Shown in pieces: positions 6,909 through 59,877 of a stretch of DNA of 64,000 bases. The translations under genes were made by a program, and so were the position numbers. The notes under the pieces were generated by a model. The model did not search any database. It was not told the origin of the DNA and was given only the letters and a program-made list of their open reading frames with translations. Each line of letters starts with the position of its first letter. The stretch's first letter is position 1. This DNA comes from Thermincola ferriacetica. Its GTDB lineage: Bacteria > Bacillota > Thermincolia > Thermincolales > UBA2595. The DNA lies in contig JAENZJ010000015.1 in NCBI GenBank assembly GCA_016841325.1, forward strand, positions 13,655 to 77,654. Reading direction: 5' to 3'.

Positions 6909-6927
6909 AAAAATATCACCCCAAAGA

Positions 6928-8498: not shown

Positions 8499-8555
8499 CT
8501 CCTTTCACTGTTGTAATATATTTCTATATTACACAGCCGGAGTCGAATTCCTTCT

Positions 8556-8915
8556 CTACTCCCCCCTGGGAGTAAAAACTGCCGCCACCAGGTACCCGAA
8601 AATAATGGCTGCTGCAATACCTGTTGCTGCAGCCTCAACTCCCCCGGCAAATGCCCCCAGGAGGCCGTTTTCCCGGACACCCCTGACAGCGCCCTGGGCC
8701 AGGAGGTGTCCAAACCCCGGAAGGGGTACTGTAGCTCCGGCGCCGGCAAAATCCACCAGCGGCTGGTACAGGCCAAGCGCGCTGAGGGCGACTCCTCCGG
8801 TGACAAAGCCCACCAGGATGTGTGCCGGAGTGACCCGGTAACTGGTCAGGTCCATCAGCAGCTGGCCAATTACACAAATCCCACCGCCTACAATAAATGC
8901 CTTGAGATAATCCAT
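8556..8915 (-). CDS. spoVAEb: Stage V sporulation protein AE (SpoVAC/SpoVAEb family)
   Basis: AFIVGGGICVIGQLL, AGAGATVPLPGFG; follows spoVAD. Confidence 0.92.
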   Translation of the reverse strand: MDYLKAFIVGGGICVIGQLLMDLTSYRVTPAHILVGFVTGGVALSALGLYQPLVDFAGAGATVPLPGFGHLLAQGAVRGVRENGLLGAFAGGVEAAATGIAAAIIFGYLVAAVFTPRGE

Positions 8916-8933
8916 TTTTTTCAGCCCTCCAGG

Positions 8934-9971: not shown

Positions 9972-10416
9972 ACAGATAGGTCATCAATCCTACTATCCAG
10001 GCACTGACAAAACCATAGGCCAGGACCGGCCCGGCAATTGTGAACATCCTCTGTCCCACTCCGAATACCATCCCTTCCCGACGGTATTCCAGAGCCGGGG
10101 CCACAATAGAATTGGCAAACCCGGTAATCGGTACAATCGTCCCTGCACCGGCATACTTGGCAATGGAATCATATACTCCCAGCCCGGTCAGTATTGCAGC
10201 CACAAAAATCAGGGTAGCAGCCGCTGCCGCACTGGCGTCGTCCTTTGCCAATCCTACAGAAATGTAGAAATTCCATAACGCCTGTCCCAGGGTACAGATA
10301 GCCCCGCCAAAGAAAAACGCTCCGGTTACGTTCCTGACCAGGGGTGGTTTTGGCTTTATCCTGGCCACCATCTGGCTGTATATTTTTTTCTGCATTTCAT
10401 GCTCAGAAGCCTTCAT
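9964..10416 (-). CDS. spoVAC: Stage V sporulation protein AC
   Basis: AFFFGGAIC, AGAGTIVPITGFANS, ALEYRREG, FTIAGPV. Confidence 0.95.
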   Translation of the reverse strand: MKASEHEMQKKIYSQMVARIKPKPPLVRNVTGAFFFGGAICTLGQALWNFYISVGLAKDDASAAAAATLIFVAAILTGLGVYDSIAKYAGAGTIVPITGFANSIVAPALEYRREGMVFGVGQRMFTIAGPVLAYGFVSAWIVGLMTYLFE

Positions 10417-10454
10417 TTCCCTTCACTCCCCCGTGAATTATTACCACACAATTA

Positions 10455-10483
10455 TAATCTGCCATCCCGCTTTATTTTTATAC
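10455..10483 (-). promoter_or_regulatory. Possible sigmaG/sigmaF promoter of spoVA operon
   Basis: GTATA (10483-10479), 17 nt spacer, CAGATTA (10461-10455); spoVA is sigmaG-dependent in B. subtilis. Confidence 0.5.
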
Positions 10484-10741
10484 CTGATAAACCATTAAGA
10501 GGCAGGCATATAGGTAATATTGTATGCCTCTTTCCATTCGTTTTTCAGGTCGTCCGTCCAGGACAGTCGAACGGGCTCTTTGCGCTTTAGCGCTTAGAGC
10601 CCGTTTTACCCTTTGGGTAGACCCGCAAAGCGGGAGCTGATGCCGGCGGAGATATTGCCCGCCGGAGGAATACATCTACCACTTTCCATTTTACATTTTA
10701 ATATTTTTTAAAAATATGGACCTTTGAAATCCTGGAAAGAG

Positions 10742-10936
10742 CTACTCTGTATAGGCTATTTTCACATTAGCCTTAAAATCCACCAGGTCACCGTCAACAA
10801 CATCTGCCGTTAGATTATAAACCTCTACACCGGTGATGTTGTCAAATCTCCTGGAGGCATCCTTGACGGCATTCTGGACGGCACTTTTCCAACTGCTCTC
10901 GGATTCTCCTATTACTTCAACCACTTTTACGTACAT
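10742..10936 (-). CDS. Dodecin family protein
   Basis: 64 aa; KVVEVIGES..SW..AVQNAV..AS and KANVKIAY match the dodecin pattern; strong AGGAGG RBS. Confidence 0.85.
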   Translation of the reverse strand: MYVKVVEVIGESESSWKSAVQNAVKDASRRFDNITGVEVYNLTADVVDGDLVDFKANVKIAYTE

Positions 10937-11003
10937 GTGCTAACCATCCTCCTTAAAATTTTATTGCATAACCTATCAAAATTTTTTCCCTAAACAACAA
11001 AAT

Positions 11004-11801
11004 CTATGCATCACCAGACTCCTGTTCATTTAACATAGCCCTGATGTTTTTCAGGGCCTGTCTCTCAATTCTGGAAACCTGGACCTGGGAAATGTTCATC
11101 ATATCTGCTACCTGTGACTGGGTCTTGTCCTCGAAAAAGCGCAGCAGCAGAACGGATTTTTCCCTTTCAGGAAGCCTCTGGATGACATCCTTTAAGGCGA
11201 TTTTATCAAACCACCCGCTGCTTTCTTCCGTCTCACCCGCTATGGCATCCATGACATAGATCGGGTCACCGTCATCCTGATATACAGTCTCAAATATGGA
11301 GGTGGGTGTCTGGGCAGCTTCCAGGGCAGTTAGTATTTCTTCCCCTTCAAGCCCGGTATATTCCGACACCTCCTGTATCGATGGTTCCCTGCCAAGGGTT
11401 GCGGTAAGTTCTTCCCTCGCCTTGTGTACTTTATGCACGGTCTCCTTTAATGAGCGGCTGACCTTTACCGGATTGTCGTCCCTGAGAAACCTCCTGATTT
11501 CACCGATAATCAAAGGCACCGCATATGTGGAAAACTTGACATTATAACTTAAATCAAACTTATCAATAGCCTTTATCAGGCCTATGGTCCCAATCTGAAA
11601 CAGGTCCTCCAGTTCATGTCCCCTGTTGGCAAAACGCTGGACCAGACTGAAAACCAGTTTCAGGTTACAGTTCACCAAAATTTCCCTGGCCTCTTCATCC
11701 CCGTCCTTGACCCTTCTTAACAGGCCTTTAATTTCTTCATCCGAAAGAAGCGGGAACCGGGGAAGATTCATTTCCGATAACCGGGTATTCAAATTTCCCA
11801 C
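11004..11801 (-). CDS. sigF: RNA polymerase sporulation sigma factor SigF
   Basis: DLFQIGTIGLIKAIDKFD, FSTYAVP, RRFLRDD, SQVQVSR; third gene of the spoIIA operon. Confidence 0.96.
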   Translation of the reverse strand: MGNLNTRLSEMNLPRFPLLSDEEIKGLLRRVKDGDEEAREILVNCNLKLVFSLVQRFANRGHELEDLFQIGTIGLIKAIDKFDLSYNVKFSTYAVPLIIGEIRRFLRDDNPVKVSRSLKETVHKVHKAREELTATLGREPSIQEVSEYTGLEGEEILTALEAAQTPTSIFETVYQDDGDPIYVMDAIAGETEESSGWFDKIALKDVIQRLPEREKSVLLLRFFEDKTQSQVADMMNISQVQVSRIERQALKNIRAMLNEQESGDA

Positions 11802-11806
11802 CCCGC

Positions 11807-12271
11807 TTAGTTCTCTTCAGATATTAATTCAGATGATGCTGCCACTCTCCTGGGCGGCTTCTTAGTCATAATGACCCTGGTTCCCTTGTCAACAGCAGAC
11901 TCCACTTTAAGGGTTTCCATAAATGATTGCATAAAGGTGAAACCAAGTCCCATTCTTTCGGGGTCAGTGGAAAAAGCAGTTTCCATTGCCTTGGGTACAT
12001 CGGGAATACCTTTGCCCTCATCTTCAATTACTAATTCCAACACCGCGTCTTCATAAATGGTACACAGCAGAGTGACAATCCTGTTGGGGTCATTATCATA
12101 TCCATGGATAATGCTGTTTGATACGGCTTCAGATACAACAATCTTTATTTCCTCCAGGTCTTCAAGGGTAAATTCCATCTGTGCCGCAAAGGCTCCGGCG
12201 GCTGACCTTGCCAGAGGCACGTTCTCCGGCACAGACATAAAAGATAATTTAACTTGGTTCCTGATCTTCAT
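11807..12271 (-). CDS. spoIIAB: Anti-sigma F factor
   Basis: VSEAVSNSIIHGY, DEGKGI, ERMGLGFTFM, GTRVIM (GHKL fold). Confidence 0.96.
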   Translation of the reverse strand: MKIRNQVKLSFMSVPENVPLARSAAGAFAAQMEFTLEDLEEIKIVVSEAVSNSIIHGYDNDPNRIVTLLCTIYEDAVLELVIEDEGKGIPDVPKAMETAFSTDPERMGLGFTFMQSFMETLKVESAVDKGTRVIMTKKPPRRVAASSELISEEN

Positions 12272-12283
12272 TTTTCAGACCCC

Positions 12284-12619
12284 CTACATTGCCTCCAGGG
12301 CATCATTTTCTGTTTCAAATTCACTTGTAATGCGCAGAATCCCTGACAGTTCCAGAATCCTCCTGACCTGTGGCGGAGCTCCCACCAGGACCACCTTACC
12401 TCCGCCCATGGTGATATTCTTATACCTCCCCAGGATGGCACCCAGGCCAGAACTGTCTATAAAGTTGACTCCCTTCAGGTTCAGGACCAGATTTTTGGTA
12501 CAGTTTCTTTCCATCAGTGTATCAATTTTCCTCCTGAACTCATCTGCGACCAGCATATCCAGTTCTCCGGCCACCCTTATAATCAGTGTTTTCCGGTCAA
12601 CCGCAGATTCAATCTTCAT
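12284..12619 (-). CDS. spoIIAA: Anti-anti-sigma F factor
   Basis: GELD, FIDSSGLGAILGRYK (STAS domain). Start placed at ATG 12619. Confidence 0.96.
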   Translation of the reverse strand: MKIESAVDRKTLIIRVAGELDMLVADEFRRKIDTLMERNCTKNLVLNLKGVNFIDSSGLGAILGRYKNITMGGGKVVLVGAPPQVRRILELSGILRITSEFETENDALEAM

Positions 12620-45492: not shown

Positions 45493-46008
45493 ATGAAAAA
45501 ACTGTTTATTTTACTGCTAAGTGTTTTGATTATTGTCGTTGCAGGTTGCTCAAAATCAGAAACCAAAAGTCCTCCTCCTGAACCCAATACACAGGAAAAG
45601 GCTGATACAGCACACCTTACTGCCGAAGACAAGGAGTTTAAAATGTCAGTCAGTAAAGAAATTCGTTCTCTGTCTGCCATGAATATTTATAACAAAGAAG
45701 GTCATGAACTGGTAAGTGTCCTAGTCGCCCTTGAAAATGTCTCTAAAGATAATGTACCCATTTCACCGGAATTTGTCACCCTGAAAACTGCAGATGGAAC
45801 TGAGTACAAGTATTCAGCGGAACTTACCCGGCAAATAACCAATAAATCGGCCTTTAAAGAGGTAGTGCTCCCACCGGATTACCGTGGAGGCGGACTGCTT
45901 CTGTTTGAACTGAAAAAAGATTCGCCGCCTGATACGCTAACCTATAAAGATGACTCAAATCATGAGATGACAGTACAGTTTCCATCTCAAGTAAAAACAA
46001 GTATTTAA
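45493..46008 (+). CDS. Lipoprotein (DUF4352-like Ig fold)
   Basis: Lipobox VVAGC; V.V.LEN.S, F.LKT.DG.EY, G.LLFE pattern. Confidence 0.7.
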   Translation: MKKLFILLLSVLIIVVAGCSKSETKSPPPEPNTQEKADTAHLTAEDKEFKMSVSKEIRSLSAMNIYNKEGHELVSVLVALENVSKDNVPISPEFVTLKTADGTEYKYSAELTRQITNKSAFKEVVLPPDYRGGGLLLFELKKDSPPDTLTYKDDSNHEMTVQFPSQVKTSI

Positions 46009-46019
46009 AAAAACGGGTT

Positions 46020-46060
46020 TAAAAAAACGGGACTGCCTAGTAAAGCAGTCCCGTTTTTTA
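46020..46060. terminator. Bidirectional terminator between the lipoprotein and cytochrome genes
   Basis: AAAAAAACGGGACTGC-CTAGTAAA-GCAGTCCCGTTTTTT. Confidence 0.8.
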
Positions 46061-46996
46061 GTTCAAAAGATTTTCCAGTTCACGGTACTTTTGCTGGGTA
46101 TAGTCAAGAATTTTGGTAGAGTAATCAAAGTTGTGAATCCCCTTACTTCCGTCTGCAACAACAAACGAGAGATTAGTGTAGACCACATTATAAACCTCCT
46201 GGGCCGGACCCACCTGAAGACCCTGAGTTCTGCGGTAATCCAACTTTTTCTTTGCTTCAGCCAGTTTTTTCTCCAGGTCTTCACTATCCCGCTCAATCTG
46301 CTGCTGCATTTTGGCCACCTCTTTAGCAAATTCCTCTTCTGACTGGTCGGCATGACACATTACACAGATGCTTTCGGTATGTTCTTCCAGGGCTTCCTCC
46401 GGTGTTTTGCCCTTAAAGGTATGGGCTTCATTAGGCATATGGCACTCGATACATGTGAGTCCTGACTTGTATTTTGAATCCGGCGTTACCGGTACGCCAA
46501 TGGCTCCATAACCCAGGAACATCTCCTTCTGGGGATGGTGGACCTCTTCACCTGCCACAATCTCTTTTGTGGCATTATGACAGGCAGTACATGTTTCCAG
46601 GGGGTCATACCTGAGTTTAAATTCACTCTGGGTTAAAACATGACAAACAGCGCAGGTTATAGAAAGCTTAACACTGGCAACATCAGGTTTCTGGCCGGGA
46701 GGAGCCAGGAAATACTCTGCTGAGTGGCACTGATAACACTCGGGTGCCTCATGGTCACTCTCCAGAAGGTCGGGAAGTGATTCGGTATGGCTGCTGGTGG
46801 CATACTGTTCTTTAATAGGTATATAGATATCTACCATACTCTTTTGTTTATTGTTTTGGAACTCCCTGACCTGTGCTTCGGTCACCTTAGCCCTTTCCGG
46901 AGCTTTATCATCAGGGTTTGTCTCCCTCTGCATACAACCGCCCAAGACGATTGTGATTACTGCAATAAACATTAATAATACTTTCCTGGCGTTCAC
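46058..46996 (-). CDS. Pentaheme cytochrome c lipoprotein (NrfA/c552-like C-terminal region)
   Basis: Lipobox VLGGC; five CxxCH (CYQCH, CAVCH, CTACH, CIECH, CVMCH); HHPQKEM; N...V.ADGSKGIHN. Likely GTG start at 46996; ORF open from 47017. Confidence 0.88.
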   Translation of the reverse strand: MNARKVLLMFIAVITIVLGGCMQRETNPDDKAPERAKVTEAQVREFQNNKQKSMVDIYIPIKEQYATSSHTESLPDLLESDHEAPECYQCHSAEYFLAPPGQKPDVASVKLSITCAVCHVLTQSEFKLRYDPLETCTACHNATKEIVAGEEVHHPQKEMFLGYGAIGVPVTPDSKYKSGLTCIECHMPNEAHTFKGKTPEEALEEHTESICVMCHADQSEEEFAKEVAKMQQQIERDSEDLEKKLAEAKKKLDYRRTQGLQVGPAQEVYNVVYTNLSFVVADGSKGIHNFDYSTKILDYTQQKYRELENLLN

Positions 46997-47013
46997 ACTG
47001 TTCCCCCCGTTCT

Positions 47014-48759
47014 TCAAGAATCAAAGGTTTCTTCACTGTTAACCTTAAATCTGGAAACCGCTTCCTGCAGTTGATGCACCATGCCGGCCAGGCTGTTAGC
47101 GGCATCAAAGAGTTCAATAACCGCCTTGGACTGGGCAATAACCAGTTCAGACATTTCCTGAGATGTCTTCACTGTTTTCTTTGATATCCTGCTGTTTTCA
47201 GTAACTTCCTGAACAATGTACTGGCTGCTGACAGTTATCTGCTGGGTATTGTTGACCACTTCCCTGGTCTGTTCAGATGCGGTATGGACCGCCTCAATTA
47301 TCTCTGTAAGTATTTCTCCGGCATCATTGATGACAACTGTACCGGCTGCAACTACCTCCCGGCCTTCATCCATTGATAAAACAGCATCCTGGGAGCGTTT
47401 CTGTATCTGGGCTATTATCTGGCGGATCTTGTCCACTAACTGTGCAGAGCCTGAGGCCAGCTTGCGCACTTCCTCAGCAACAACCGCAAAGCCTTTACCC
47501 TGTTCACCGGCCCTGGCAGCCTCTATAGCAGCATTTAAAGCCAGCAAGTTTGTCTGCTTGGCGAATCCAGAGATCATATCAATGATATCGGAAATTTGAT
47601 TGACATCACTTACAAGTGTTTTCACATCCATGGACAGGTGGTCAACCTTCTGCTCAATAAGGTTCATCTGTTCAATAGCCGCCCTTACCGACCCTCCGCC
47701 TTTCTGTGCCATTTCAGCCGCTGACGTTGTGGTCCGGTTGATCATCTGGATACTCAGGTTAATGTTATTTATGGCTTCCATAGCTGTTTCTGCAGATGCC
47801 TGGAGTTCTGCAATACCATTAGCCTGTTGTTTGGCTCCTTCTGACACATCATTGATAGACCGGTCAATTTTACTGTAAGCTGCCGCACTCTGCTGAGTAT
47901 GTGATGCAAAGGCCTCACTTGCAGCAGCAATCTCCCTGCTCCAGTCTACAATTCGTTCGATTATTGCCCTGAGGTTGTCTACCATAATATTAAAAGATTT
48001 TGCCAGTTCACTGAATTCTCCGATGGAATTGTCCCTTATTTTCTGAGTCAGGTCTCCTTCCGCAATGTTTCTGGAGACACGGACCAGATTCGTCAGGGGT
48101 GTGGTAATATTCTTTGAAGTAATGAAGGTCAGGGTAAAACATCCGATAATGGCAACTACTGCAATTGAATACATAATGCTGCGCGAAGTCAGCAGGATGG
48201 CCCGGCTCTTCTCCTGAGCCTCGGTGGCCTGTTTCTGAGTCCCTTCAACAAGTTGATTGGCTGTATCGATCATCTTGTCGCCTGCCAGCCGGTAATTGCC
48301 CCAGAGGGTATCAACCAGATTGTCACGCCCGGCCTCCTCATATTTGAAAATATGGTTAGCCACCAGATTAAAGTTATCGTGTTCTCTTTTTACTCTGTAA
48401 AGGCTTTCCAGGGTCTGTTCATCCTGCCCCGCATCACCTATAAGCTCTTCAAACTCAGTTATTTTGGCTTTAAACTGCCTGTCCAGTTCCCGGTATTTCT
48501 GCTTAATGTTCTTGTTGCCGACAGTAAAATCCCTTGTCAGCATCTGCTGTTCCTGTACAATAGATTTGATGCTTCCGGCAATATTAACCTGAGGTAAAAA
48601 CTTATATGTACTGTCATCTATGGCCTGCTGAATCCGGGCCATATTAGTATCAGCCACGATCATCACCAGTGTGAGCATAATAACTACACCCAGGTATCCC
48701 ATCAGAATCTTTAGTGTGACATCACTAATCTTGAACTTCGAATAATGCACCCGGCCCAC
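47014..48759 (-). CDS. Methyl-accepting chemotaxis protein (2 TM, four-helix sensor, HAMP)
   Basis: QTNLLALNAAIEAARAGEQGKGFAVVAEEVRKLA; HAMP region ITTPLTNL...GDLT...EFSELAKSFN. Confidence 0.95.
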   Translation of the reverse strand: MGRVHYSKFKISDVTLKILMGYLGVVIMLTLVMIVADTNMARIQQAIDDSTYKFLPQVNIAGSIKSIVQEQQMLTRDFTVGNKNIKQKYRELDRQFKAKITEFEELIGDAGQDEQTLESLYRVKREHDNFNLVANHIFKYEEAGRDNLVDTLWGNYRLAGDKMIDTANQLVEGTQKQATEAQEKSRAILLTSRSIMYSIAVVAIIGCFTLTFITSKNITTPLTNLVRVSRNIAEGDLTQKIRDNSIGEFSELAKSFNIMVDNLRAIIERIVDWSREIAAASEAFASHTQQSAAAYSKIDRSINDVSEGAKQQANGIAELQASAETAMEAINNINLSIQMINRTTTSAAEMAQKGGGSVRAAIEQMNLIEQKVDHLSMDVKTLVSDVNQISDIIDMISGFAKQTNLLALNAAIEAARAGEQGKGFAVVAEEVRKLASGSAQLVDKIRQIIAQIQKRSQDAVLSMDEGREVVAAGTVVINDAGEILTEIIEAVHTASEQTREVVNNTQQITVSSQYIVQEVTENSRISKKTVKTSQEMSELVIAQSKAVIELFDAANSLAGMVHQLQEAVSRFKVNSEETFDS

Positions 48760-49776: not shown

Positions 49777-51708
49777 CTATAATTGTGGCATGAGTTTTAT
49801 TTTAGCCTTCCTGCGCAGGTTTTTCCTGCCCCCTGGCAGCATAATTTGTGCCTCTTCTATGATATTGGATGCCGTTAAACCGCACTGTTCCCGTAAAATG
49901 TCCTGAGCTCCGTGGCTGATGAATCTGTCAGGGACTCCGATCCTTTTAACCGGAACCATAATACCGTTTGTCTCCAGCAATTCCAGGACAGCGCTGCCAA
50001 ATCCCCCCTGTAACACGTTTTCCTCAACGGTCAGGAGCCTGCCGGTATTGCTGATGCTTTTAAGCAGACATTCCTCATCAAGGGGCTTCACAAATCGGGC
50101 ATTGATAACTTCTGCACTTATTCCCAGTTCAGCCAGTAAATCTGCAGCCTGCATCGCCTCATGGACCATGGGGCCTACTGCCGCAATGGTGATGTCATTT
50201 CCTTTACGTACCAGTTCAGCCCTGCCAAAGGGAATTGTCCCAATATCCGTTAAATCATCAATCTTAACGCCAAACCCGTTACCCCGGGGATACCTTACCA
50301 CAACAGGTCCCTGATACTGTTCTATGGAAGCCAGCAGCATCTGTCGTAGTTCTGCCTCATCTTTGGGAGCCATAACCGTCAGCCCGGGTATATGTCTCAG
50401 GTAGGAAATGTCAAATACACCCTGGTGGGTTTCCCCGTCTTCTCCCACAAGGCCGGCCCGGTCTATGGCAAAGACCACATGCAAACCCTGCAGGGCAACA
50501 TCATGCAGGACCTGGTCATAAGCCCTCTGCAGGAAAGTTGAGTATATAGCCACGACAGGTATGTAACCCGATACGGCAAGACCGGCAGCAAGAGTTACGG
50601 CATGCTGCTCTGCGATACCGACATCATAAAATCGCTCCGAAAAGCGTTCCCTAAATTCTGTCAGGCCCGTACCCGTCGGCATAGCTGCGGTAATCGCAAG
50701 TACTTTTTCGTTGGCAGCCGCAATCTGGCAAAGGGTTTCACCAAATACTTCGGTATAGGTTATCTTTTGTTTTTTTTCAGTATTACCCGTTTTCACATCA
50801 AATGGGCCTATTCCGTGAAATTTATCGGGATTTTCCTCGGCAGGTTTATACCCCTTACCTTTTCGGGTAATAACGTGTACCAGGACAGGTCCGTGGCTCT
50901 TACGGGCACGTTCCAGTACTGTCCTGATAAGGGAAATATCGTGTCCGTTGATAGGTCCCAGGTACGTAAAGCCAAGTTCTTCAAACAGCATCCCCGGAAC
51001 AACCAGGTATTTGAAGCTGTCTTTGATTCTCTCAATAGCCTTCACAACAGTGGGGCCTATTGAGGGAATCTTTTTGAGGAGGAGTTCCATTTCTTCTTTA
51101 TGTTTATAATATTTTGGATCTGTCCTCATCCGGCTAAGGTATCCTGCCAGAGCACCTACGTTTTCGGAAATTGACATCTCGTTATCATTAAGGATTACTA
51201 TTAGGTTACTTCCAACATGTCCGGCATGGTTCATAGCCTCAAAAGCCATCCCGCCGGTCATGGCCCCATCTCCGATTACAGCAATTACATGATTTTTTTC
51301 ACCTTTAAGGTCTCTGGCAATAGCCATTCCCAGGGCAGCTGAGATAGAGGTACTGCTGTGCCCTGTGTCAAATGGGTCACAATGTGATTCCGCCCTTTTG
51401 GGGAAACCGCTGATCCCGCTATACTGCCTCAAAGTGGCAAACCCTTCACGCCTGCCTGTAAGTATTTTGTGGATGTAAGACTGGTGGCCGACATCCCAGA
51501 TAATTTTATCATTGGGACAATCAAAAATACTGTGCAGGGCAATAGTTAATTCAACGACCCCAAGGTTAGGCGCGATATGCCCCCCGGTCTCAGCAACTGT
51601 TTCAATGAGCAGCCCCCTGATCTCTTCTGCCAGCTTGTACAACTGTTCTAAAGAAAAATTCTTCAGGTCAGCAGGGGATTTTATCTTATTCAGTATAGGG
51701 GTATCCAT
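49777..51708 (-). CDS. dxs: 1-deoxy-D-xylulose-5-phosphate synthase
   Basis: [54 protein letters not shown]. Confidence 0.97.
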
Positions 51709-51713
51709 CAGTT

Positions 51714-52301
51714 TCACCTTCTTCTGTCTTTACGCCGGTTTAATGCAAACAGGTTCCTTCCTGTCAATGTTTCAAACCAGGCAAGGATACGTCCGACTGT
51801 ACCCACAATATGCTGTGATTCCTGTATCGCTTTGTTTTTGGCAAGAGCTTTGCCTCCAACTGTAAGTGAAGCCACTATTCCGGTCATCACCATTGTCAGG
51901 ATGGATTCATCCCAGGACGGCCTCCGGTTAGCCAACTGAAATACGATAGCCACACCAAAAACACCACTGACCGTACCACAGATATCCCCCACAACATCAT
52001 TACAAATTGTGGCAACCTTAGCTGCATTACGTATCAGCAGGATGGACTGCCCCGCGCCTTTCAGTTTCTTGGATGCCTTGGCATGAAACCATTTTTCATC
52101 GGCAACCGCTACTGCAAGACCAATCATATCAAATATTATTCCAATAAAGATGATAATTAACAGGGATAGAAAAGAGAGTATAATTATCTGGAGCTTTGGT
52201 AACACTATTTCAGAAAAAAAGCTAAAAAAAACAGCCACTAAAAACGCCGAGGTTCCTGTAAGTACTGCAAATTTGACGGAACCAGGCTTATTATTACCCA
52301 A
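51714..52301 (-). CDS. oapA: OLE-associated protein A (DUF21/CNNM-like membrane protein)
   Basis: 195 aa with 3-4 [34 protein letters not shown]; between the long ncRNA and dxs, the canonical oapA position. Confidence 0.85.
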
Positions 52302-52352
52302 ATAGTTTCACCTCATACCAATATTGGCATCATGCGAATTTTTATGTAAATG

Positions 52353-52956
52353 GTAGGTGGCAGCATGACAAGTAAATGTTGTGGCTTAAGGTCCAGCTGG
52401 TTTTCCCATTCATCTCCGTCGCGTTACCGCTCCGGCGGTTTCCCTTTATGATGAATCCGTAGCGTCGCCGCTTACGGGGCTAGATTACCACTTAGACCAC
52501 ACTTTAATCCCTGTCATGCCTTAGTAAACCTAAACAGCCTAGGAGTTTTCCTCAACAGGACTGGGAACACTTCTAGCCTCTTTTGCAGTGATGGTTTCAT
52601 ACAGCGGTCCTGTCGAAAGCGGGCCCGCATTCAACAGCTCCGATAACCCATAATCCACCAGCACCACTCAAGGCAGGCTACACTGCTTTAGACACCTTAC
52701 CGCAGTAAAGCATCATATACACAGGTTTCTCCCGGGAAGTTTCCGTTATTTACAGACCGGTATGCTTCCCGGGCCTCCACGGAGGCTGGGTCAACGCCTA
52801 CATGCCTTTGTAGATCGCCCTTCCCCCTTACTCCCAGAACCGACCCCCAACTGGGCGTCAGCAGCCGGAACCAGGAACTTCATCGATATGCCCTTTGACG
52901 GATTTTTAGGCCCGCCTTCAAAGTGGCAGTCCTGACTAGGATACTGCGCCACCTAC
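52353..52956 (-). ncRNA. ole: OLE RNA (ornate, large, extremophilic)
   Basis: About 604 nt with no credible ORF, closed by a 9-bp terminal stem (5' GUAGGUGGC 52956-52948 / 3' GCCACCUAC 52361-52353); many internal stems; canonical ispA-ole-oapA-dxs-tlyA-nadK-argR-recN synteny. Confidence 0.9.
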
Positions 52957-52978
52957 ATTGTGTTTTCATTAAAATAGA

Positions 52979-53007
52979 ATTATATCATGAAAAAAGTCAT
53001 TATTCAA
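52979..53007 (-). promoter_or_regulatory. SigmaA promoter directly upstream of OLE RNA
   Basis: TTGAAT (53007-53002), 17 nt spacer, TATAAT (52984-52979). Confidence 0.75.
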
Positions 53008-53013
53008 TACTTT

Positions 53014-53457
53014 TTATATTATTAAGGCAACACTTAGACCCAAAGCCGCTCCTGCAATAACCTCAACAGGAGTATGACCGAGTATTTCTCTTAACTTAAC
53101 CGGAGTGATAGCGCTCCCGCTGTATAAATCGTGCAGCAGTTCATTGAGGATCTGCGCCTGGACACCAACAGCCTGCCGTACACCGGCAGCATCATACATC
53201 ACCACCAGAGCCATAACAGCTGCCAGAGCAAAAACACCGGAGTCAAAACCATTCTGTTTGCCCACACCAACCGAGACTGAAGTAACAAAAGCCGCATGAC
53301 TGCTGGGCATACCACCGCTTTTTACCAGGCGGGTCAGATTAATTTCGCCGTCAGTGATAATTCCCAGGACAAATTTTATCACCTGGGCCAGCAGCCATGA
53401 AAGCATTGCCGCTAAAAATGCCGCATTGTTTGCTATTTCGTGTATAGCTGCACCCAC
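53014..53457 (-). CDS. Divergent PAP2 family protein (YuiD-like)
   Basis: AQVIK, SGGMPSSH, VVMYDAAGVR, GHTPVEV. Confidence 0.9.
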   Translation of the reverse strand: MGAAIHEIANNAAFLAAMLSWLLAQVIKFVLGIITDGEINLTRLVKSGGMPSSHAAFVTSVSVGVGKQNGFDSGVFALAAVMALVVMYDAAGVRQAVGVQAQILNELLHDLYSGSAITPVKLREILGHTPVEVIAGAALGLSVALII

Positions 53458-53479
53458 TGGTTCCCTCCGTTATCTGCAG

Positions 53480-54379
53480 TCAGTTTTCCCTTTCCAGGAG
53501 GTAGTCTGCAATGTACCTCAGCAAATCTGCTTCAGAGCCAAAAATATCCAACGCCTCCCGGGCCCTGCCCACTGCATTGCCGGCCAGCCGTTTGGACTCC
53601 TCAAGCCCATATACTGATGGGTAAGTCGCTTTCATGAGCCTTTCATCACTTCCGACTGATTTTCCCAGCTTACCTGAATCCCCTTCAACATCCAGGACAT
53701 CGTCGGTAATCTGAAACGCCAGTCCCAGGTTTTCGGCATACCGGGTCAGGGCACCCAACTGATCAGCGCTGCCCCCACCCAGAAGGGCTCCGGCACGGAC
53801 ACAGGCCCTAAACAGGGCTCCGGTTTTATGTGAATGAATGTAATCCAAAACCTGTTTATTGATTACCTGATTTTCGGAGTTAATATCGACTACCTGTCCA
53901 CCTATCATCCCAAAAGGCCCTGCCGCCAGGGATAATTCCTTAATTACCTGGATAACCGTTTCCGGAGAGATGTTCCCCGAATCTGCACACTCCGTGATTA
54001 AGCAAAAGGCATGGGTCAGCAACCCGTCACCGGCCAATATGGCCATGGCTTCGCCAAAAACCCTGTGATTGGTAGGCAGCCCCCGCCTGAAATCATCGTT
54101 ATCCATGGCAGGCAGGTCATCATGAATCAGTGAATAAGTATGGACCATTTCAAAGGCGGAAGCGGCCGGCAGCAGCATGGCGGGATCTCCCCCCACAGCT
54201 TCTGCCGATGCCAGCAGCAGAACCGGCCTGATCCTCTTCCCTCCGGCAAATATACTGTATCTCATTGCCTGGTTAAGTGTTTCCGGTACTGCTGTGCTTT
54301 TAGACAGGTAATGGTCCAGGGACTGGTCAATTAACCTGACTTTATCATTTATTTCCCTCCTGAGGGTATCTTTATTCAT
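53480..54379 (-). CDS. ispA: Farnesyl-diphosphate synthase (geranyltranstransferase)
   Basis: GGKRIRP, HTYSLIHDDLPAMDNDDFRRG, GQVVD, FQITDDVLD. Confidence 0.96.
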   Translation of the reverse strand: MNKDTLRREINDKVRLIDQSLDHYLSKSTAVPETLNQAMRYSIFAGGKRIRPVLLLASAEAVGGDPAMLLPAASAFEMVHTYSLIHDDLPAMDNDDFRRGLPTNHRVFGEAMAILAGDGLLTHAFCLITECADSGNISPETVIQVIKELSLAAGPFGMIGGQVVDINSENQVINKQVLDYIHSHKTGALFRACVRAGALLGGGSADQLGALTRYAENLGLAFQITDDVLDVEGDSGKLGKSVGSDERLMKATYPSVYGLEESKRLAGNAVGRAREALDIFGSEADLLRYIADYLLEREN

Positions 54380-55974: not shown

Positions 55975-56730
55975 TTACAGCATCTTGCGGTATTCTTTTT
56001 GTATGGTTTCCCTGAGCAGTTCTGCAACCTGTGCTGCTCCGGTCATTTGGCTATACGGAATAGTCAGCTTCACATATCGTTCATCGAGGTCAAGGTCGTC
56101 CAGAAATCCCCCCAGGATCCCCCTGTTTTTCTTGTCAATCTGCATCATCACAACAAGCTCGTGTTCACCTGCAGACGGATAAAGCTCAATTTCATCCAGC
56201 TCTCTGGCCATAAAGGAAGTGGGCTTATATTCAAACTCCTGATAACGGCCGTTGTAATCTCCTGACCGGTGCTTCTCTCTAAATCCAAGGGCATCAACAG
56301 CATCAAAGAGCATCTTCAGGTATTTATTGGGAAGAATCCTGATATCATCATGGTCTGTAGGATCAATGGCCTTTTCGATATCCAGCCCGGTTTGCAAATA
56401 ATACCTTGTCCTTCCTTTCGATACCGGCAGGTTGTTTGAAATTTTGAAAATTACGGGAATCTCTTCTTCCTGACCCGGCTTCAGCAGCATTTTGTCTGCT
56501 GCCGTAACCGTAGCAATATTCTTCCTGACATGCTTTGTTTCGTCACCACTACCGTAAGCTGAGGTTAGGACCAGGTTGATATATATCTTATCAATCTCCT
56601 GCTCCACATTACCACCTCTGAGTTTGACCACACCTTCAAGAACACCTCCCAGTTCGACCTGCGGCCTCGCTACCTCAAGGTCCACCGCAGCCGAACCAAT
56701 GCCAATACTTGCAAGGATTTTTTTAAACAC
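55975..56730 (-). CDS. spo0M: Sporulation-control protein Spo0M family
   Basis: MFKKILASIGIGSAAVD, GGNVEQEI, TGLDIEKAIDPTDHD, QEFEY.P, LDEIEL. Confidence 0.88.
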   Translation of the reverse strand: MFKKILASIGIGSAAVDLEVARPQVELGGVLEGVVKLRGGNVEQEIDKIYINLVLTSAYGSGDETKHVRKNIATVTAADKMLLKPGQEEEIPVIFKISNNLPVSKGRTRYYLQTGLDIEKAIDPTDHDDIRILPNKYLKMLFDAVDALGFREKHRSGDYNGRYQEFEYKPTSFMARELDEIELYPSAGEHELVVMMQIDKKNRGILGGFLDDLDLDERYVKLTIPYSQMTGAAQVAELLRETIQKEYRKML

Positions 56731-56817: not shown

Positions 56818-59800
56818 TTAAATACTCACCTGAAAAGCTGTCATCTTTTGCAGCAGTTTTTCTGTCTCAGCAGCAGGTGCAGGCTTACTAAAGAGGTACC
56901 CCTGCATTTCGTAACATTCCTGCTGTTCAAAAAAGGCCAACTGCTCTTCATTTTCAACCCCTTCAATAATCACATTGAGCTTAAGGTTCTGGGCCATAAC
57001 TATGATTGTGGCTACAATAGCGGCATCCTCAAGATCTGTAAGCACATCATGCACAAACGACCGGTCAATCTTAAGAGTGGTCAGGGGAAATTTTCGCAGG
57101 TAACCAAGTGATGAATAGCCTGTCCCGAAATCATCCATAGCAATTCTGATTCCCATATCCCTTAGTCTTTTCATCATAATCAGGCTGAATTCCACATCCT
57201 GCATTGCAGTACTTTCTGTTATTTCAAGTTCCAGCCACCTGGGTTCCAGACCGGTTTCCCGAAGTATAGATACTATCATATCCACCAGGTTTTTCTGTCT
57301 GAACTGGTATGCCGACAGGTTTACTGCCATCCTGACCGGTGGATAGCCGGCATCCTGCCAGGCCTTATTCTGGGCGCAGGCAGTTTTCAGGACCCATTCA
57401 CCTATCGGTATGACCAGTCCCGTATCTTCGGCGACATTGATGAATTCTATGGGCAGGATAACTCCCTTTTCCGGGTGGTTCCACCTTATAAGAGCCTCAA
57501 ACCCGACAATCAGGCCCTTTGCGATATTGACCTGCGGCTGGTAGTATATCTGGAGTTCACCGTTTTCCATAGCCTTTCGCAAAGCCACCTCAATTTCCAT
57601 GCGCCTGATATTCTTAATATTCATGGAAGGTGTGTAAAACTGGTAGTTATCCCCCTGTTCCTTGGCCCGGTACATTGCCGTATCCGCATTCTTGGTGAGG
57701 GTTTCGGCATCTTCCCCGTCATTTGGGTAAAGTACTATTCCTACACTTACTGTAATCTGAAACTCATAACCATTAATATGCCACGGTTTTTTCAGTTCAC
57801 CTATAATTTTTTGGGCAACCTTGGCCGCATCTTCCTCCCTGTTTATATCTGGCAGCAAAATGGTAAACTCATCACCACCGATACGGGCAACAGTATCATT
57901 TGACCTGACACAGGCCTGCAACTGCCTGCCTACCTTTTTCAAGAGCTGGTCTCCCATTGCATGCCCCATCATATCATTGACCATTTTAAACCGATCCAGG
58001 TCAATAAACATCATGGCGAGCATTTGTTTGTTTCTCTTAGCATTTGCCAAAGCAACAGTCAGACGGTCGAAAAACAGTATCCTGTTGGGGAGGTCTGTAA
58101 GGGGATCGTGATATGCCAGGTGGTTGATGGTCTCTTCTGCCTTTTTCCGGTCCGTCACGTCCCGAATAATCCCAAGGAGCACTTTTTCATTACCCAGTTC
58201 CGTTGCCTGCAGGCTCACCTCAACAGGCATGGTTCTGCCATTCCTGAGTTGGTGTATTGTTTCATAAAGCAGGCCTTTTCTCTCAACCTGGTCAATCTGT
58301 ACCGCAAACAGCGATTTTGTCTGCGGCGCCCGCAGGTCCGAAACATTCATTGCCAGCAGCTGCTCTCTGGAGTAACCATAGGTATTAACCGCTGCAGTGT
58401 TGGCTTCCAGTATTTTGCCATCGGGGCGGAAAAATAGAATAATATCACTGGCATGTTCAAACAACAGCTGATATCTATTCAATACCTCTTCCGCCCGGAT
58501 CCGTTCTGTAATATCTTCACCAAAACAGCTTAGGCCGATAATCTCCTCATTCACGTCCCTTAATAGGGTTGAATTCCATGAAACTGTCCTTAACTCTCCT
58601 GACTTGGTCTGGATTACAGCAACCTTGTGCAGGGCATCGGGGCCGGCATTCCCGGCAAACAAACTCAAAAACCCTTCCCGCAACTTGTTCCTGGTAGTTT
58701 CCGGAATAAAGGTTTCAAACCAACAGGTCCCAAGAATTTCTTCACGCCGCCACCCGGTAAGTTCAAGCAAAAAATCATTACAAAATGTTATATTTCCCTT
58801 CCTGTCCAGTGTTACTGTCAACAGTCTCACATTTTCAAGAATCTCCCGGAAGCGCCGTTCCGATTTTCTCAACTCCTCTTCAGCCTGCCTTCGCCTCGTA
58901 ATGTCCCGGGCTATCCCTTCAAATCCCACCAGGCAACCTCTTTCGTCATAAAAAGGCACCGTATGGTGTTCAGTCCAGACGATATTCCCGTCTTTTCTGA
59001 AAGTACGCATGATTGCAGTTTTCCCCTGTTCGTCCGTGAGAACCGGGAGTTTTTTTAAAATATCCAGGTCATCAGCATGGGTTATTTTTTGCAGCAGTTC
59101 CGGGTCTGCATAATGTTCTTCCGGAGTGTAACCCGTAATATCTGCAGCAGCCGGATTGACATATTCATAACCGCGGTTGGGTACCAACCGGTAACGATAA
59201 ATTATGTCCTGGGCATTTTCAGCCAGTCTGCGGAATCTTGCTTCACCGGAAGATAATACTGCCCTCATCTTTTCAAGATATACCAGCAGAATACCCATAG
59301 CAACAAAAAACTCCAGAATCGCTGCAATAAGGTATCCCCAGGGCGCAAACCCGGGTATCATGCCGATAAAGGGGTAGTTTAGCTTATGCAATCCCCAGGC
59401 AGCAAATCCCCATCCGGCAAACATCTTGCCCAGGCCCTCAAGGTCCCTGGACCGGAGAATTATTAAACCTGTCCATGTATACACAAACCCCAGCAATAAA
59501 AATGTCGGTAAATTCAGGATATGCCACGGAATATCCATGGTTAATCCGGCAGCTATCCATAACCCGTCACCCATAAAAACGTAAAGGAGCCACCTGGGTT
59601 GCTGTTTCCCCAGAAATGAATAGGTTCCCCACATCAGCAGCAAACCACTTGCCAGGTTGGCAACCTGCTGCCCGGCAATAAACAACGACTCACCTGTTCC
59701 GGAATTCACTAACAGTTCGAAAAAAAAGCGCAATAAGTAAAAGGTCCAGCTGATTGCCCAGATTTTCATGAAACGCTCATGATACCGGACAAAAAGATAC

Positions 59801-59877
59801 CAGTAAACCATTGCCAATATTACTGTACCCAGCAGTGTTGCAATGACCGAGGGAATTATCCAGTCCATATTTCCCAC
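56818..59877 (-). CDS. Membrane-anchored PAS-PAS-PAS-GGDEF-EAL c-di-GMP enzyme
   Basis: About 200-aa multi-TM N-terminus, three PAS/PAC repeats, intact GGDEF, EAL (GFEALIRW) and DDFGTGYSSL. Confidence 0.93.
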   Translation of the reverse strand: MGNMDWIIPSVIATLLGTVILAMVYWYLFVRYHERFMKIWAISWTFYLLRFFFELLVNSGTGESLFIAGQQVANLASGLLLMWGTYSFLGKQQPRWLLYVFMGDGLWIAAGLTMDIPWHILNLPTFLLLGFVYTWTGLIILRSRDLEGLGKMFAGWGFAAWGLHKLNYPFIGMIPGFAPWGYLIAAILEFFVAMGILLVYLEKMRAVLSSGEARFRRLAENAQDIIYRYRLVPNRGYEYVNPAAADITGYTPEEHYADPELLQKITHADDLDILKKLPVLTDEQGKTAIMRTFRKDGNIVWTEHHTVPFYDERGCLVGFEGIARDITRRRQAEEELRKSERRFREILENVRLLTVTLDRKGNITFCNDFLLELTGWRREEILGTCWFETFIPETTRNKLREGFLSLFAGNAGPDALHKVAVIQTKSGELRTVSWNSTLLRDVNEEIIGLSCFGEDITERIRAEEVLNRYQLLFEHASDIILFFRPDGKILEANTAAVNTYGYSREQLLAMNVSDLRAPQTKSLFAVQIDQVERKGLLYETIHQLRNGRTMPVEVSLQATELGNEKVLLGIIRDVTDRKKAEETINHLAYHDPLTDLPNRILFFDRLTVALANAKRNKQMLAMMFIDLDRFKMVNDMMGHAMGDQLLKKVGRQLQACVRSNDTVARIGGDEFTILLPDINREEDAAKVAQKIIGELKKPWHINGYEFQITVSVGIVLYPNDGEDAETLTKNADTAMYRAKEQGDNYQFYTPSMNIKNIRRMEIEVALRKAMENGELQIYYQPQVNIAKGLIVGFEALIRWNHPEKGVILPIEFINVAEDTGLVIPIGEWVLKTACAQNKAWQDAGYPPVRMAVNLSAYQFRQKNLVDMIVSILRETGLEPRWLELEITESTAMQDVEFSLIMMKRLRDMGIRIAMDDFGTGYSSLGYLRKFPLTTLKIDRSFVHDVLTDLEDAAIVATIIVMAQNLKLNVIIEGVENEEQLAFFEQQECYEMQGYLFSKPAPAAETEKLLQKMTAFQVSI

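What the first reader, a model, noticed from the sequence alone, without database searches (positions are those of the whole stretch)
52353..52956. OLE RNA: ~604-nt structured noncoding RNA upstream of its partner gene oapA
Seen in sequence: 0.6 kb with no credible ORF inside an otherwise tightly packed operon. Its two ends are complementary (GUAGGUGGC/GCCACCUAC, 9 bp). It has dense internal stems, e.g. CCCGGGAAG 52731-52739 / CTTCCCGGG 52765-52773, GCCTCC/GGAGGC 52773-52786, TGCTTTA/TAAAGCA 52684-52712. The next gene is a 195-aa membrane protein with a [14 protein letters not shown] motif. Established knowledge: OLE RNAs are about 600 nt, occur in anaerobic/extremophilic Firmicutes, lie in the ispA-ole-oapA-dxs-tlyA-nadK-argR-recN operon and form a membrane RNP with OapA, OapB and OapC. 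Their biochemical function is still unresolved. The class is known, but it is invisible to ORF annotation and is the largest unexplained element in the window.
Basis: partly seen in the sequence, partly recalled or inferred. Interest (0 to 1): 0.9.

Follow-up and report, generated by a model that had tools for sequence, protein, structure and literature searches.

The report
Canonical OLE RNA gene with oapA
This 0.6-kb gap between genes encodes a textbook copy of OLE RNA, a large, intricately folded bacterial non-coding RNA that works at the membrane with the protein OapA (encoded next to it); the class is well known, so the find is correct but ordinary.

Summary
Window 52968-52341 (minus strand) matches the Rfam OLE model RF01071 over its full length: 497 bits against a threshold of 50, E 7e-143. 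It is the only Rfam hit in the window.

It differs from 66 other OLE RNAs at only 1 of 221 conserved columns. The other two are not part of the consensus fold.

The next gene (52301-51714) belongs to the OapA family:
- it has four long helices;
- it has an invariant DxxxD motif;
- its best structural matches are CorB (CNNM family), though these matches are weak;
- in 74 of 80 genomes its homologues lie directly downstream of an OLE.

The gene order is xseA-xseB-ispA-DUF212-ole-oapA-dxs-tlyA-(MCP-cytochrome)-nadK-methylase-argR-recN-spoIVB-spo0A.

In soil metatranscriptomes, OLE contigs that are 95-99% identical reach depths of hundreds to thousands. The flanking genes reach 0-25.

No oapB or oapC was found among 12 small ORFs of the window compared with solved structures. 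The rest of the genome is not available.

The biochemical function is as unresolved here as it is for the whole class. Verdict: already known; low interest.

The parts
52979..53007 (-). Sigma-70-like promoter candidate directly upstream of OLE: TTGAAT, 17-nt spacer, TG-extended TATAAT
   Evidence: 10 of 12 matches, TG before the -10. The same -35, spacer and -10 are conserved in the closest relative L001 although the flanking intergenic DNA differs. It is a consensus match only; no transcription start site was mapped.
52341..52968 (-). OLE RNA gene (full Rfam RF01071 match, model positions 1-616 of 616)
   Evidence: 497.3 bits, E 6.8e-143; it deviates at 1 of 221 columns that are at least 90% conserved in 66 other OLE RNAs; 83.3% of structure cells are paired, against 67.4% when shuffled and 40-48% when slid.
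52948..52956 (-). P1, 5' strand (GUAGGUGGC)
   Evidence: helix 1 has 9 pairs, 8 of them with changes on both sides.
52353..52361 (-). P1, 3' strand (GCCACCUAC)
52936..52940 (-). P2, 5' strand CCUAG. It contains the CUAG palindrome, one of the two mapped OapA binding regions. It pairs with CUAGG at 52538-52542.
   Evidence: 100% paired, and the first pair switches between U-A and C-G. The OapA site assignment comes from PMC12265935 (citing Block et al. 2011).
52921..52934 (-). P3 (CAGGACUG) and P3.1 (CACUU), 5' strands. They pair with 52556-52563 and 52568-52572, giving 13 bp in total. This is the helix proposed to span the membrane.
   Evidence: Searches show covariation of P3. P3.1 was read from the sequence. 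The membrane-spanning proposal and the typical 12 bp are from PMC12265935.
52897..52916 (-). P4 hairpin with the A-rich loop CUAAAAAU (dimer bridge B1 in the cryo-EM structure)
   Evidence: AAAA is invariant in 67 sequences. The bridge assignment is from PMC12286853.
52878..52887 (-). J4a/5, AUCGAUGAAG. It holds the AUCGAU palindrome (the second OapA site) and the bulged strand of the kink turn bound by OapC.
   Evidence: matches the consensus. Roles are from PMC9723947, PMC12265935 and PMC12286853.
52775..52782 (-). J6/7, CCGUGGAG, a conserved segment that is the kink-turn partner in the cryo-EM model
   Evidence: nearly invariant; PMC12286853.
52731..52773 (-). P7 stem-loop.
52683..52725 (-). 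P8, with a lineage-specific 10-bp tip hairpin
   Evidence: MFE -15.7 kcal/mol, and the same fold in L001 through compensatory changes; the extension is seen only in the window and in L001.
52619..52628 (-). Tip of P9 with the palindromic loop GGGCCC (GGCC core). This is the symmetric kissing loop, dimer bridge B3.
   Evidence: GGCC core in most of the 67 sequences; PMC12286853.
52457..52477 (-). P13 hairpin: GCGA (GNRA) tetraloop plus a single bulged A. These are the OapB recognition features.
   Evidence: alignment. The requirements are from PMC7936274.
52416..52435 (-). P14.1 hairpin with a GUAA (GNRA) tetraloop and a tandem G-A/A-G internal loop. It is a weak second OapB site in H. halodurans.
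   Evidence: PMC7936274.
51714..52301 (-). oapA: a 195-aa membrane protein. It has a TTG start with a GAGGTGA Shine-Dalgarno sequence upstream, a DxxxD motif at residues 102-106, and a basic loop at residues 70-95.
53014..53457 (-). DUF212 (divergent PAP2 family) membrane protein gene between ispA and ole. It is context, not a proven component.
   Evidence: PF02681, 5e-46; the same position in 13 of 54 related loci.

Best explanation
The region is a functional, full-length OLE (ornate, large, extremophilic) RNA gene on the minus strand, followed by its partner gene oapA.

Shown here:
- The sequence fits the OLE covariance model end to end.
- It keeps essentially every conserved nucleotide.
- Its helices P1-P15 are supported by compensatory changes across 67 OLE RNAs.
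- oapA lies 40 nt downstream of the Rfam match (52 nt after P1), with no terminator-like site between them.
- In soil metatranscriptomes, near-identical OLE RNAs are assembled at far greater depth than the neighbouring mRNAs.

Inferred from the sequence: the RNA is made from its own sigma-70-type promoter (53007-52979) and/or by read-through from xseA-xseB-ispA-DUF212. It is then trimmed or stabilised to a roughly 600-nt species bounded by P1.

Inferred from published work on H. halodurans and Clostridium OLE:
- Two RNAs dimerise through the A-rich L4 loop, the L5/L6/L7 contacts and the palindromic L9.3 loop (GGGCCC here).
- OapA dimers bind the CUAG (P2) and AUCGAU (P4a) palindromes and anchor the RNA at, or possibly through, the membrane via P3/P3.1 (13 bp here).
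- OapB binds the GNRA loop and bulge of P13.
- OapC binds the kink turn at the base of P5.

My commitment on mechanism: OapA is a CNNM/CorB-like transmembrane module that lacks the CBS and CorC regulatory domains. The RNA most likely acts as the regulatory and scaffolding part of a membrane device that tunes divalent-cation (Mg2+) handling and stress responses (alcohol, cold, Mg2+, poor carbon sources). It would stand in for the missing protein domains. This last step is inference (about 0.4). The identity as an OLE/OapA locus is about 0.97; the confidence given for this explanation (0.9) refers to the identity and the RNP framework.
For: -: RF01071 at 497.3 bits, E 6.8e-143, model positions 1-616 of 616; the only Rfam hit in the window.
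- 15 OLE RNAs next to OapA homologues score 404-547 bits, so the window's score is typical.
- 1 deviation in 221 conserved columns; 94.4% identical to the OLE of the nearest relative.
- structure pairing 83.3% against 67.4% (shuffled) and 40-48% (slid). The covariation score is 0.485 against 0.195 and 0.10-0.16. 130 of 166 pairs change on both sides, and P1 covaries.
- P2 and P3 are 85% paired, against 28-45% when slid.
- the OapA family has 947 homologues and an invariant DxxxD; OLE lies directly upstream in 74 of 80 loci.
- the AlphaFold model has four long helices. The top three Foldseek hits are MtCorB (7m1t, 7m1u; probability 0.91-1.00, TM about 0.5).
- 18 of 28 family members touch Pfam CNNM.
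- the gene neighbourhood is the canonical one.
- a conserved promoter-like site, and no terminator-like site on the minus strand between ole and oapA.
- three RNA runs give an OLE contig depth of about 50-12,600 per bin (hundreds to thousands over most of the RNA), against 0-25 for oapA, dxs and DUF212. The DNA run of the same study is roughly flat at about 10. A 593-nt RNA contig (95% identical) spans 52360-52947, that is, P1 to P1.
- Published roles: PMC12265935, PMC11332333, PMC9723947, PMC7936274, PMC12286853.
Against: - Nothing contradicts the identification.
- Expression evidence is weak in kind. It comes from assembled contigs of related strains (mostly 90-99% identical), not from reads of this organism. 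Contig depth is a poor measure of abundance, and conserved stretches attract OLE RNAs of other species.
- No transcription start site or 3' end was mapped.
- The window's own OapA does not reach any Pfam or NCBIfam threshold.
- The CorB structural matches have weak E-values (0.12-1.3), and a sequence profile finds no CorB in the PDB.
- oapB and oapC were not found among 12 small ORFs of the window compared with solved structures. The rest of the genome cannot be searched.
- The proposed mechanism is unproven for any OLE RNA. A ribozyme role or a sensing role that spans the membrane is equally open.
Confidence: 0.9

Rival explanations
1. The 0.6-kb element is a cis-acting leader (a riboswitch-like or attenuator 5' UTR) that controls translation or transcription of oapA-dxs. 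It would not be a stable trans-acting RNA.
For: It lies directly upstream of oapA on the same strand, with no terminator-like site between them. OLE and oapA are therefore probably co-transcribed.
Against: - There is no expression platform: no terminator or anti-terminator, and no pairing that hides the oapA Shine-Dalgarno sequence was noticed in the sequence (not formally tested).
- P1 closes the RNA into a self-contained domain that ends 52 nt before the start codon.
- RNA contigs of OLE are 10- to 1000-fold deeper than those of oapA.
- The only Rfam match is OLE, whose members act as RNP components (PMC12265935).
Confidence: 0.03
2. OLE RNA is primarily a ribozyme. Its conserved core catalyses a still unknown reaction, and OapA only localises it.
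For: Its size, about 25% near-invariant nucleotides and ornate fold resemble those of known large ribozymes (the argument in PMC11332333 and PMC12265935). The window copy keeps 220 of 221 conserved columns.
Against: No catalytic activity has been reported for any OLE RNA (PMC12265935). The cryo-EM structure shows a dimeric scaffold with protein pockets (PMC12286853). Nothing in this window bears on catalysis.
Confidence: 0.15
3. The region encodes small proteins (the 57-aa plus-strand or the 53-aa minus-strand ORF), and the RNA structure is incidental.
For: Two ORFs of at least 50 codons lie inside the region.
Against: The same-strand ORF stays open in only 2 of 66 homologous sequences. Variation follows base-pairing rules, not codon positions. 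The position and length of the longest ORF vary widely between OLE genes.
Confidence: 0.01
4. The copy is a decaying relic that is no longer functional.
For: Some genomes keep oapA without a neighbouring OLE (L005, L017). The pair can therefore come apart.
Against: There is 1 deviation in 221 conserved columns. Every protein-binding and dimerisation motif that was checked is intact. The promoter-like site is conserved. Near-identical RNAs are abundant in metatranscriptomes.
Confidence: 0.01

Closest known systems
OLE RNA of Halalkalibacterium (Bacillus) halodurans with OapA/OapB/OapC (Rfam RF01071; Puerta-Fernandez 2006; PMC12265935)
   Same: - Same family by covariance model, and the same P1-P15 architecture.
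- Same conserved joining regions.
- The OapA palindromes CUAG and AUCGAU are present.
- P13 has a GNRA loop plus a bulge for OapB.
- The kink-turn strand for OapC is present.
- oapA lies immediately downstream, inside an ispA...dxs-tlyA...nadK-argR-recN cluster.
   Different: - The host is an uncultured relative of Thermincola/Phosphitispora (Peptococcaceae), not an alkaliphilic Bacillus.
- A DUF212 gene sits between ispA and ole.
- An MCP gene and a pentahaem cytochrome gene are inserted after tlyA.
- P8 carries an extra 10-bp hairpin.
- J5/6 has one U instead of two (also seen in L001, L059, L063 and L068).
- L9.3 is GGGCCC.
- No biochemical or genetic data exist for this copy.
Clostridium acetobutylicum / C. 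botulinum OLE RNA dimers solved by cryo-EM (PMC12286853; Wang et al. 2025, cited in PMC12265935)
   Same: The sequence elements that form the dimer bridges are all present: the L4 A-rich loop, the L5.1 GCCCA and L6.1 GGCAUG loops, and the palindromic L9.3. P3 plus P3.1 (13 bp) is long enough for the proposed membrane-spanning helix.
   Different: Dimerisation was not tested here. The lengths of P7 and P8 differ.
MpfA/CorB/CNNM Mg2+ transporters (Pfam PF01595; PDB 7M1T, 7M1U)
   Same: The transmembrane module of OapA is the closest structural match, and 18 of 28 OapA family members touch the CNNM Pfam model. Published work finds MpfA anticorrelated with OLE and partly interchangeable with it (PMC11332333, PMC12265935).
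   Different: - OapA has four, not three, transmembrane helices.
- It has a DxxxD motif that CNNM domains lack.
- It has no CBS pair and no CorC/HlyC domain.
- The window protein itself is below every Pfam threshold.
Other large ornate bacterial RNAs (GOLLD, ROOL, raiA motif)
   Same: They are large, highly structured non-coding RNAs of unknown biochemistry. GOLLD and ROOL also form homo-oligomers (PMC12286853).
   Different: There is no sequence or structure match (one search finds only OLE). Those RNAs have no dedicated membrane-protein partner, and the first two are phage-associated.

Membership tests
OLE RNA (Rfam RF01071) | Match to the family covariance model above the curated gathering score, over the full length | tested here: met
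   497.3 bits against 50, E 6.8e-143, model positions 1-616 of 616, not truncated. The score lies within the 404-547 bit range of 15 other OLE RNAs.
OLE RNA (Rfam RF01071) | About 600 nt, with roughly a quarter of positions near-invariant | tested here: met
   The Rfam match is 628 nt, and 604 nt from P1 to P1. 221 columns are at least 90% conserved in 66 other OLE RNAs, and the window matches 220 of them.
OLE RNA (Rfam RF01071) | Ornate secondary structure supported by covariation (P1-P15) | tested here: met
   166 pairs, 83.3% paired, 130 with changes on both sides, 0 of 500 shuffles as high, and slid controls at 40-48%. P2 and P3. Poorly paired helices (distal P7 and P9) lie in length-variable regions that MAFFT aligns badly.
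OLE RNA (Rfam RF01071) | Host is an anaerobic or extremophilic member of Bacillota | tested here: met
   The nearest OapA and OLE relatives are a Thermincola MAG (86% and 94%) and Phosphitispora sp. (82%), family Peptococcaceae. The window carries spo0A, spoIVB and spo0M. The organism itself is not named.
OLE RNA (Rfam RF01071) | oapA immediately downstream, inside the ispA/dxs/tlyA/nadK/argR/recN cluster | tested here: met
OLE RNA (Rfam RF01071) | Accumulates as an abundant, discrete RNA | tested here: inconclusive
   contigs of near-identical OLE RNAs in three soil metatranscriptomes reach depths of hundreds to thousands, against 0-25 for the flanks. One 593-nt contig spans P1 to P1. These are related strains and assembled contigs, without strand information.
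OLE RNA (Rfam RF01071) | Sequence elements for homodimerisation (L4 A-rich loop, L5.1/L6.1 loops, palindromic L9.3) | tested here: met
   All are present. Dimer formation itself cannot be tested with these tools.
OLE RNA (Rfam RF01071) | Membrane localisation through OapA; stress phenotypes on deletion | not testable with these tools
   This needs fractionation or imaging and genetics in the organism or a surrogate host.
OapA | About 200-aa protein with four transmembrane helices and a basic cytoplasmic cluster | tested here: met
   195 aa. The AlphaFold model has helices 6-36, 40-66, 93-125 and 130-160 (pLDDT 75). Residues 70-95 hold 7 Lys/Arg, and the C-terminus is RRKDRRR. Hydropathy at 1.6 or above flags only the first three helices.
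OapA | DxxxD motif (absent from CNNM domains) | tested here: met
   D102-V-V-G-D106. Both Asp residues are invariant in 28 diverse homologues. The motif definition is from PMC11332333.
OapA | Encoded directly downstream of ole | tested here: met
   oapA starts 40 nt after the Rfam match (52 nt after P1) on the same strand. The same arrangement is found in 74 of 80 homologous loci, and 3 of the other 6 lack upstream sequence.
OapA | CNNM/CorB-like fold without CBS or CorC domains | tested here: met
   The top three Foldseek hits are MtCorB 7m1t_B, 7m1t_A and 7m1u_B (probability 1.00, 0.99, 0.91; TM 0.50-0.53). The E-values are weak, at 0.12-1.3. No CBS or CorC domain is found. 18 of 28 relatives hit PF01595. 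A sequence profile finds no CorB in the PDB.
OapA | Binds OLE RNA cooperatively | not testable with these tools
   The RNA carries the two palindromes mapped as OapA sites: CUAG at 52936-52939 and AUCGAU at 52882-52887. Binding itself needs an assay.
Complete OLE RNP (OapB = YbzG, OapC = YbxF) | Genome encodes OapB and OapC | tested here: inconclusive
   The translations of 12 small ORFs of the window (50-150 aa, positions 22-30784) were joined and compared with PDB sequences. These should include OapB and YbxF/L7Ae, but their presence there was not checked. Only ferredoxins matched. Six other small ORFs were left out of that query, three of them unannotated. These genes lie elsewhere in H. 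halodurans, and only this window is available.
Riboswitch / cis-regulatory leader | An expression platform (terminator/anti-terminator or Shine-Dalgarno sequestration) coupled to the structured domain | tested here: not met
   no terminator-like site on the minus strand in 51500-53600. P1 closes the domain 52 nt upstream of the start codon.

The most novel reading that the evidence does not exclude
The arrangement ispA - DUF212 (a PAP2-like membrane phosphatase) - ole - oapA - dxs is seen here and in 13 of 54 related loci. It could mean that the OLE RNP is wired to polyprenyl-phosphate (isoprenoid lipid-carrier) metabolism in the membrane, for instance by sensing or gating lipid-carrier supply, and not only to Mg2+ handling. 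A second loose end: some genomes (L005, L017) keep oapA fused to ispA with no OLE within 4 kb. OapA may therefore have an RNA-independent activity.
Probability: 0.08. Interest if true: 0.6.

Novelty: already known. Interest (0 to 1): 0.25.

Why it matters
For annotation: an ORF-based pipeline would leave a 0.7-kb hole here and call the next gene 'hypothetical'. The hole should be labelled ole (OLE RNA) and the gene oapA.

For biology: the copy adds one more orthodox member from a Thermincola/Phosphitispora-like lineage. That group includes metal-reducing and phosphite-oxidising anaerobes (my own knowledge, not checked here). The metatranscriptome contigs suggest that such OLE RNAs are among the more abundant transcripts in some soils.

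It does not bring the open question, what OLE RNA does biochemically, any closer to an answer.

Tried and rejected
- Pfam and NCBIfam on the OapA candidate gave no hit, even at E up to 10, apart from noise such as Rhomboid and holin families.
- A single-sequence search and a profile search of the PDB gave nothing relevant. The CNNM link is visible only through the predicted fold and through relatives.
- I looked for OapB and OapC by joining 12 small ORFs of the window into one PDB query. Only a ferredoxin matched.
- I considered the two internal ORFs as genes and rejected them, because the frame is not conserved.
They conflict with the covarying P8 hairpin and with P6 and J6/7.
- The terminator-like hits on the plus strand inside OLE lie within stems P14.1 and P7. 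They are most likely those stems read on the opposite strand.
- No public run holds this exact sequence (best share of words 0.34). Expression could therefore be judged only from relatives.

Full report
OBSERVATION

On the minus strand, a DUF212 gene ends at 53014 and a 195-aa ORF starts at 52301. That leaves 712 nt without a long ORF. A scan of the whole window against Rfam 15 gives a single hit above threshold. It is RF01071 (OLE) at 52968-52341 on the minus strand, with 497.3 bits (gathering score 50), E 6.8e-143, model positions 1-616 of 616, not truncated.

I aligned the window's OLE with 66 OLE RNAs taken from genomes that encode a homologue of the downstream protein. I then counted pairs for the Rfam consensus structure plus P1.
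- 83.3% of cells form standard pairs, against 67.4% in shuffles and 40-48% when the partners are slid.
- The covariation score is 0.485, against 0.195 (shuffled) and 0.10-0.16 (slid).
- 130 of 166 pairs change on both sides.

Rfam's model leaves the first 53 nt unpaired. In that stretch I also found the helices that later papers call P2 and P3.
- P2 is YCUAG/CUAGR.
- P3 is CAGGACUG/CAGUCCUG.
- Together they are 85% paired, against 28-45% when slid.

The other two stems do not hold.
- UGCUUUA/UAAAGCA competes with a 10-bp hairpin at the tip of P8. That hairpin is the minimum-energy fold, and the closest relative preserves it through compensatory changes.
- GCCUCC/GGAGGC would have a 2-nt loop. 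It also uses the 3' strand of P6 and the conserved J6/7, which forms a kink turn with J4a/5 in the cryo-EM structure (PMC12286853).

Two ORFs of 57 and 53 aa lie inside the RNA. The same-strand one remains open in only 2 of 66 homologues.

HOW ORTHODOX THE COPY IS

Of 221 alignment columns that are at least 90% conserved in the other 66 OLE RNAs, the window differs at one. That column lies in the variable P8 region. Every functional element described in the literature is present.
- The CUAG and AUCGAU palindromes, mapped as OapA sites (PMC12265935).
- P3 plus P3.1, 13 bp in total, the helix proposed to cross the membrane (PMC12265935).
- The A-rich L4 loop.
- The L5.1 and L6.1 loops.
- A palindromic L9.3 (GGGCCC, with a GGCC core), which forms a dimer bridge (PMC12286853).
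- The kink-turn strand AUCGAUGAAG for OapC (PMC9723947).
- P13 with a GCGA tetraloop and a single bulged A for OapB (PMC7936274).
- P14.1 with a GUAA loop.

Small lineage-specific features are the extra P8 hairpin, shared only with the nearest relative, and one U instead of two in J5/6, also seen in four other loci.

THE PARTNER GENE

The 195-aa protein has no Pfam or NCBIfam match and no sequence match in the PDB. It has 947 homologues at E <= 1e-3, nearly all about 190-200 aa long. The closest named ones are Phosphitispora sp. (82%) and Thermincola ferriacetica (58%).

In an alignment of 28 diverse members, D102 and D106 are invariant. This is the DxxxD motif that distinguishes OapA from CNNM domains (PMC11332333).

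The AlphaFold model (pLDDT 75) has four long helices. Its three best PDB matches are the archaeal CNNM transporter MtCorB (7m1t, 7m1u; probability 0.91-1.00, TM 0.50-0.53), but the E-values are weak. This reproduces the published result for H. halodurans OapA (PMC11332333). Eighteen of the 28 relatives touch Pfam CNNM.

Of 80 genomic loci that encode a homologue, 74 have an OLE directly upstream on the same strand. Three of the other six simply lack upstream sequence. I did not have the H. halodurans OapA sequence. Bacillaceae homologues that follow an OLE (Halobacillus, Lentibacillus, Aeribacillus) are 39-44% identical over the full length.

CONTEXT

The minus-strand gene order is xseA, xseB, ispA (FPP synthase), DUF212, ole, oapA, dxs, tlyA, an MCP, a pentahaem cytochrome c, nadK, an rRNA methylase, argR, recN, spoIVB, spo0A.
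- DUF212 between ispA and ole recurs in 13 of 54 loci.
- The MCP insertion is shared only with the nearest relative.
- An rRNA methylase lies between nadK and argR.

A promoter-like site lies directly upstream of the RNA and is conserved in the nearest relative: TTGAAT, 17 nt, TG-TATAAT. There is no terminator-like site between ole and oapA.

EXPRESSION

No public run contains this exact sequence. Three soil metatranscriptomes contain OLE contigs that are 90-99% identical.
- Their assembler depth over 52242-53045 is about 50 to 12,600 per bin, hundreds to thousands over most of the RNA.
- oapA, dxs and DUF212 reach 0-25.
- The DNA run of the same study is roughly flat at about 10.
- One 593-nt RNA contig (95% identical, depth 283) covers 52360-52947, essentially P1 to P1.

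This fits a stable RNA of about 600 nt. It is indirect: the strains are related, not identical, the data are contigs, and there is no strand information.

MECHANISM

What is shown is identity and integrity. How the RNA works is carried over from other species.
- OLE dimerises (PMC12286853).
- It is tethered to the membrane by OapA, and it needs OapB and OapC (PMC12265935, PMC9723947, PMC7936274).
- It protects against alcohol, cold, excess Mg2+ and poor carbon sources (PMC10898510, PMC12265935).

OapA is a bare CNNM-like membrane module, and MpfA-type transporters anticorrelate with OLE (PMC11332333). The reading I favour is therefore that the RNA supplies the regulatory and scaffolding functions that CBS and CorC domains supply in all-protein relatives, and so tunes divalent-cation handling. 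This is inference, and a catalytic role is not excluded.

COMPARISON AND VERDICT

Every defining feature of OLE RNA and of OapA that sequence tools can test is met. Expression is supported only indirectly. Membrane localisation, protein binding and phenotypes cannot be tested here. oapB and oapC were not found among 12 small ORFs of the window compared with solved structures, and they lie elsewhere in the model organism.

The class has been known since 2006, has a curated Rfam model, and has thousands of catalogued members (2,822 in Bacillota; PMC11332333). The finding is correct but not novel, and this copy offers no new handle on the function.

Noticed in passing
L005:3087-4585 and L017:3008-4558: In a Desulfovirgula MAG and a Peptococcaceae MAG, the oapA homologue begins at the stop codon of ispA. 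No OLE is found within 4 kb on either side, by Rfam at gathering threshold or by nhmmer. OapA without a neighbouring OLE is unusual, given the tight pairing elsewhere (74 of 80 loci).
   Followed up: partly
L038:3237-3857: In an Anaerosolibacter MAG, the first ~100 nt of the Rfam 'full-length' OLE hit are actually the C-terminal coding sequence of the DUF212 gene. The RNA seems to lack the 5' strands of P1-P4 but keeps the 3' strand of P1. This may be a truncated OLE or an assembly artefact.
   Followed up: partly
window 45493-48759: Three genes are inserted between tlyA and nadK: a methyl-accepting chemotaxis protein (48759-47014), a pentahaem c-type cytochrome with five CxxCH motifs and a possible lipoprotein signal (LGGC near the N-terminus; 47017-46058), and a plus-strand DUF4352 gene (45493-46008). 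Only the nearest relative shares the MCP.
   Followed up: partly
window 53014-53457: A DUF212 (divergent PAP2 family) membrane protein gene sits between ispA and ole. The same placement is found in 13 of 54 related loci. It is not mentioned in the mSphere 2024 phylogenetic-profiling paper.
   Followed up: partly
alignment A3: L003, L022, L044, L048, L073; L077; L053: Five OLE RNAs lack the distal part of P9, including the GGCC kissing loop. L077 carries an insertion of about 100 nt in P8, and L053 a large insertion in P7. The dimer bridge B3 therefore cannot be universal.
   Followed up: no
window 52644-52911, in RNA runs X3, X4 and X7: OLE-like contigs reach an assembler depth of up to about 12,600 in soil metatranscriptomes. 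This suggests that OLE RNAs are among the abundant transcripts of that community.
   Followed up: partly
window 56818-59877 and 55975-56730: Upstream of xseA lie a 1019-aa PAS-GGDEF-EAL signalling protein and a Spo0M homologue. Downstream of recN lie spoIVB and spo0A. The host is therefore a spore-former with c-di-GMP signalling.
   Followed up: no
window 52426-52439 and 52733-52745 (plus strand): The two terminator-like hits on the plus strand lie within OLE stems P14.1 and P7. They are most likely those stems read on the opposite strand, not real terminators.
   Followed up: yes
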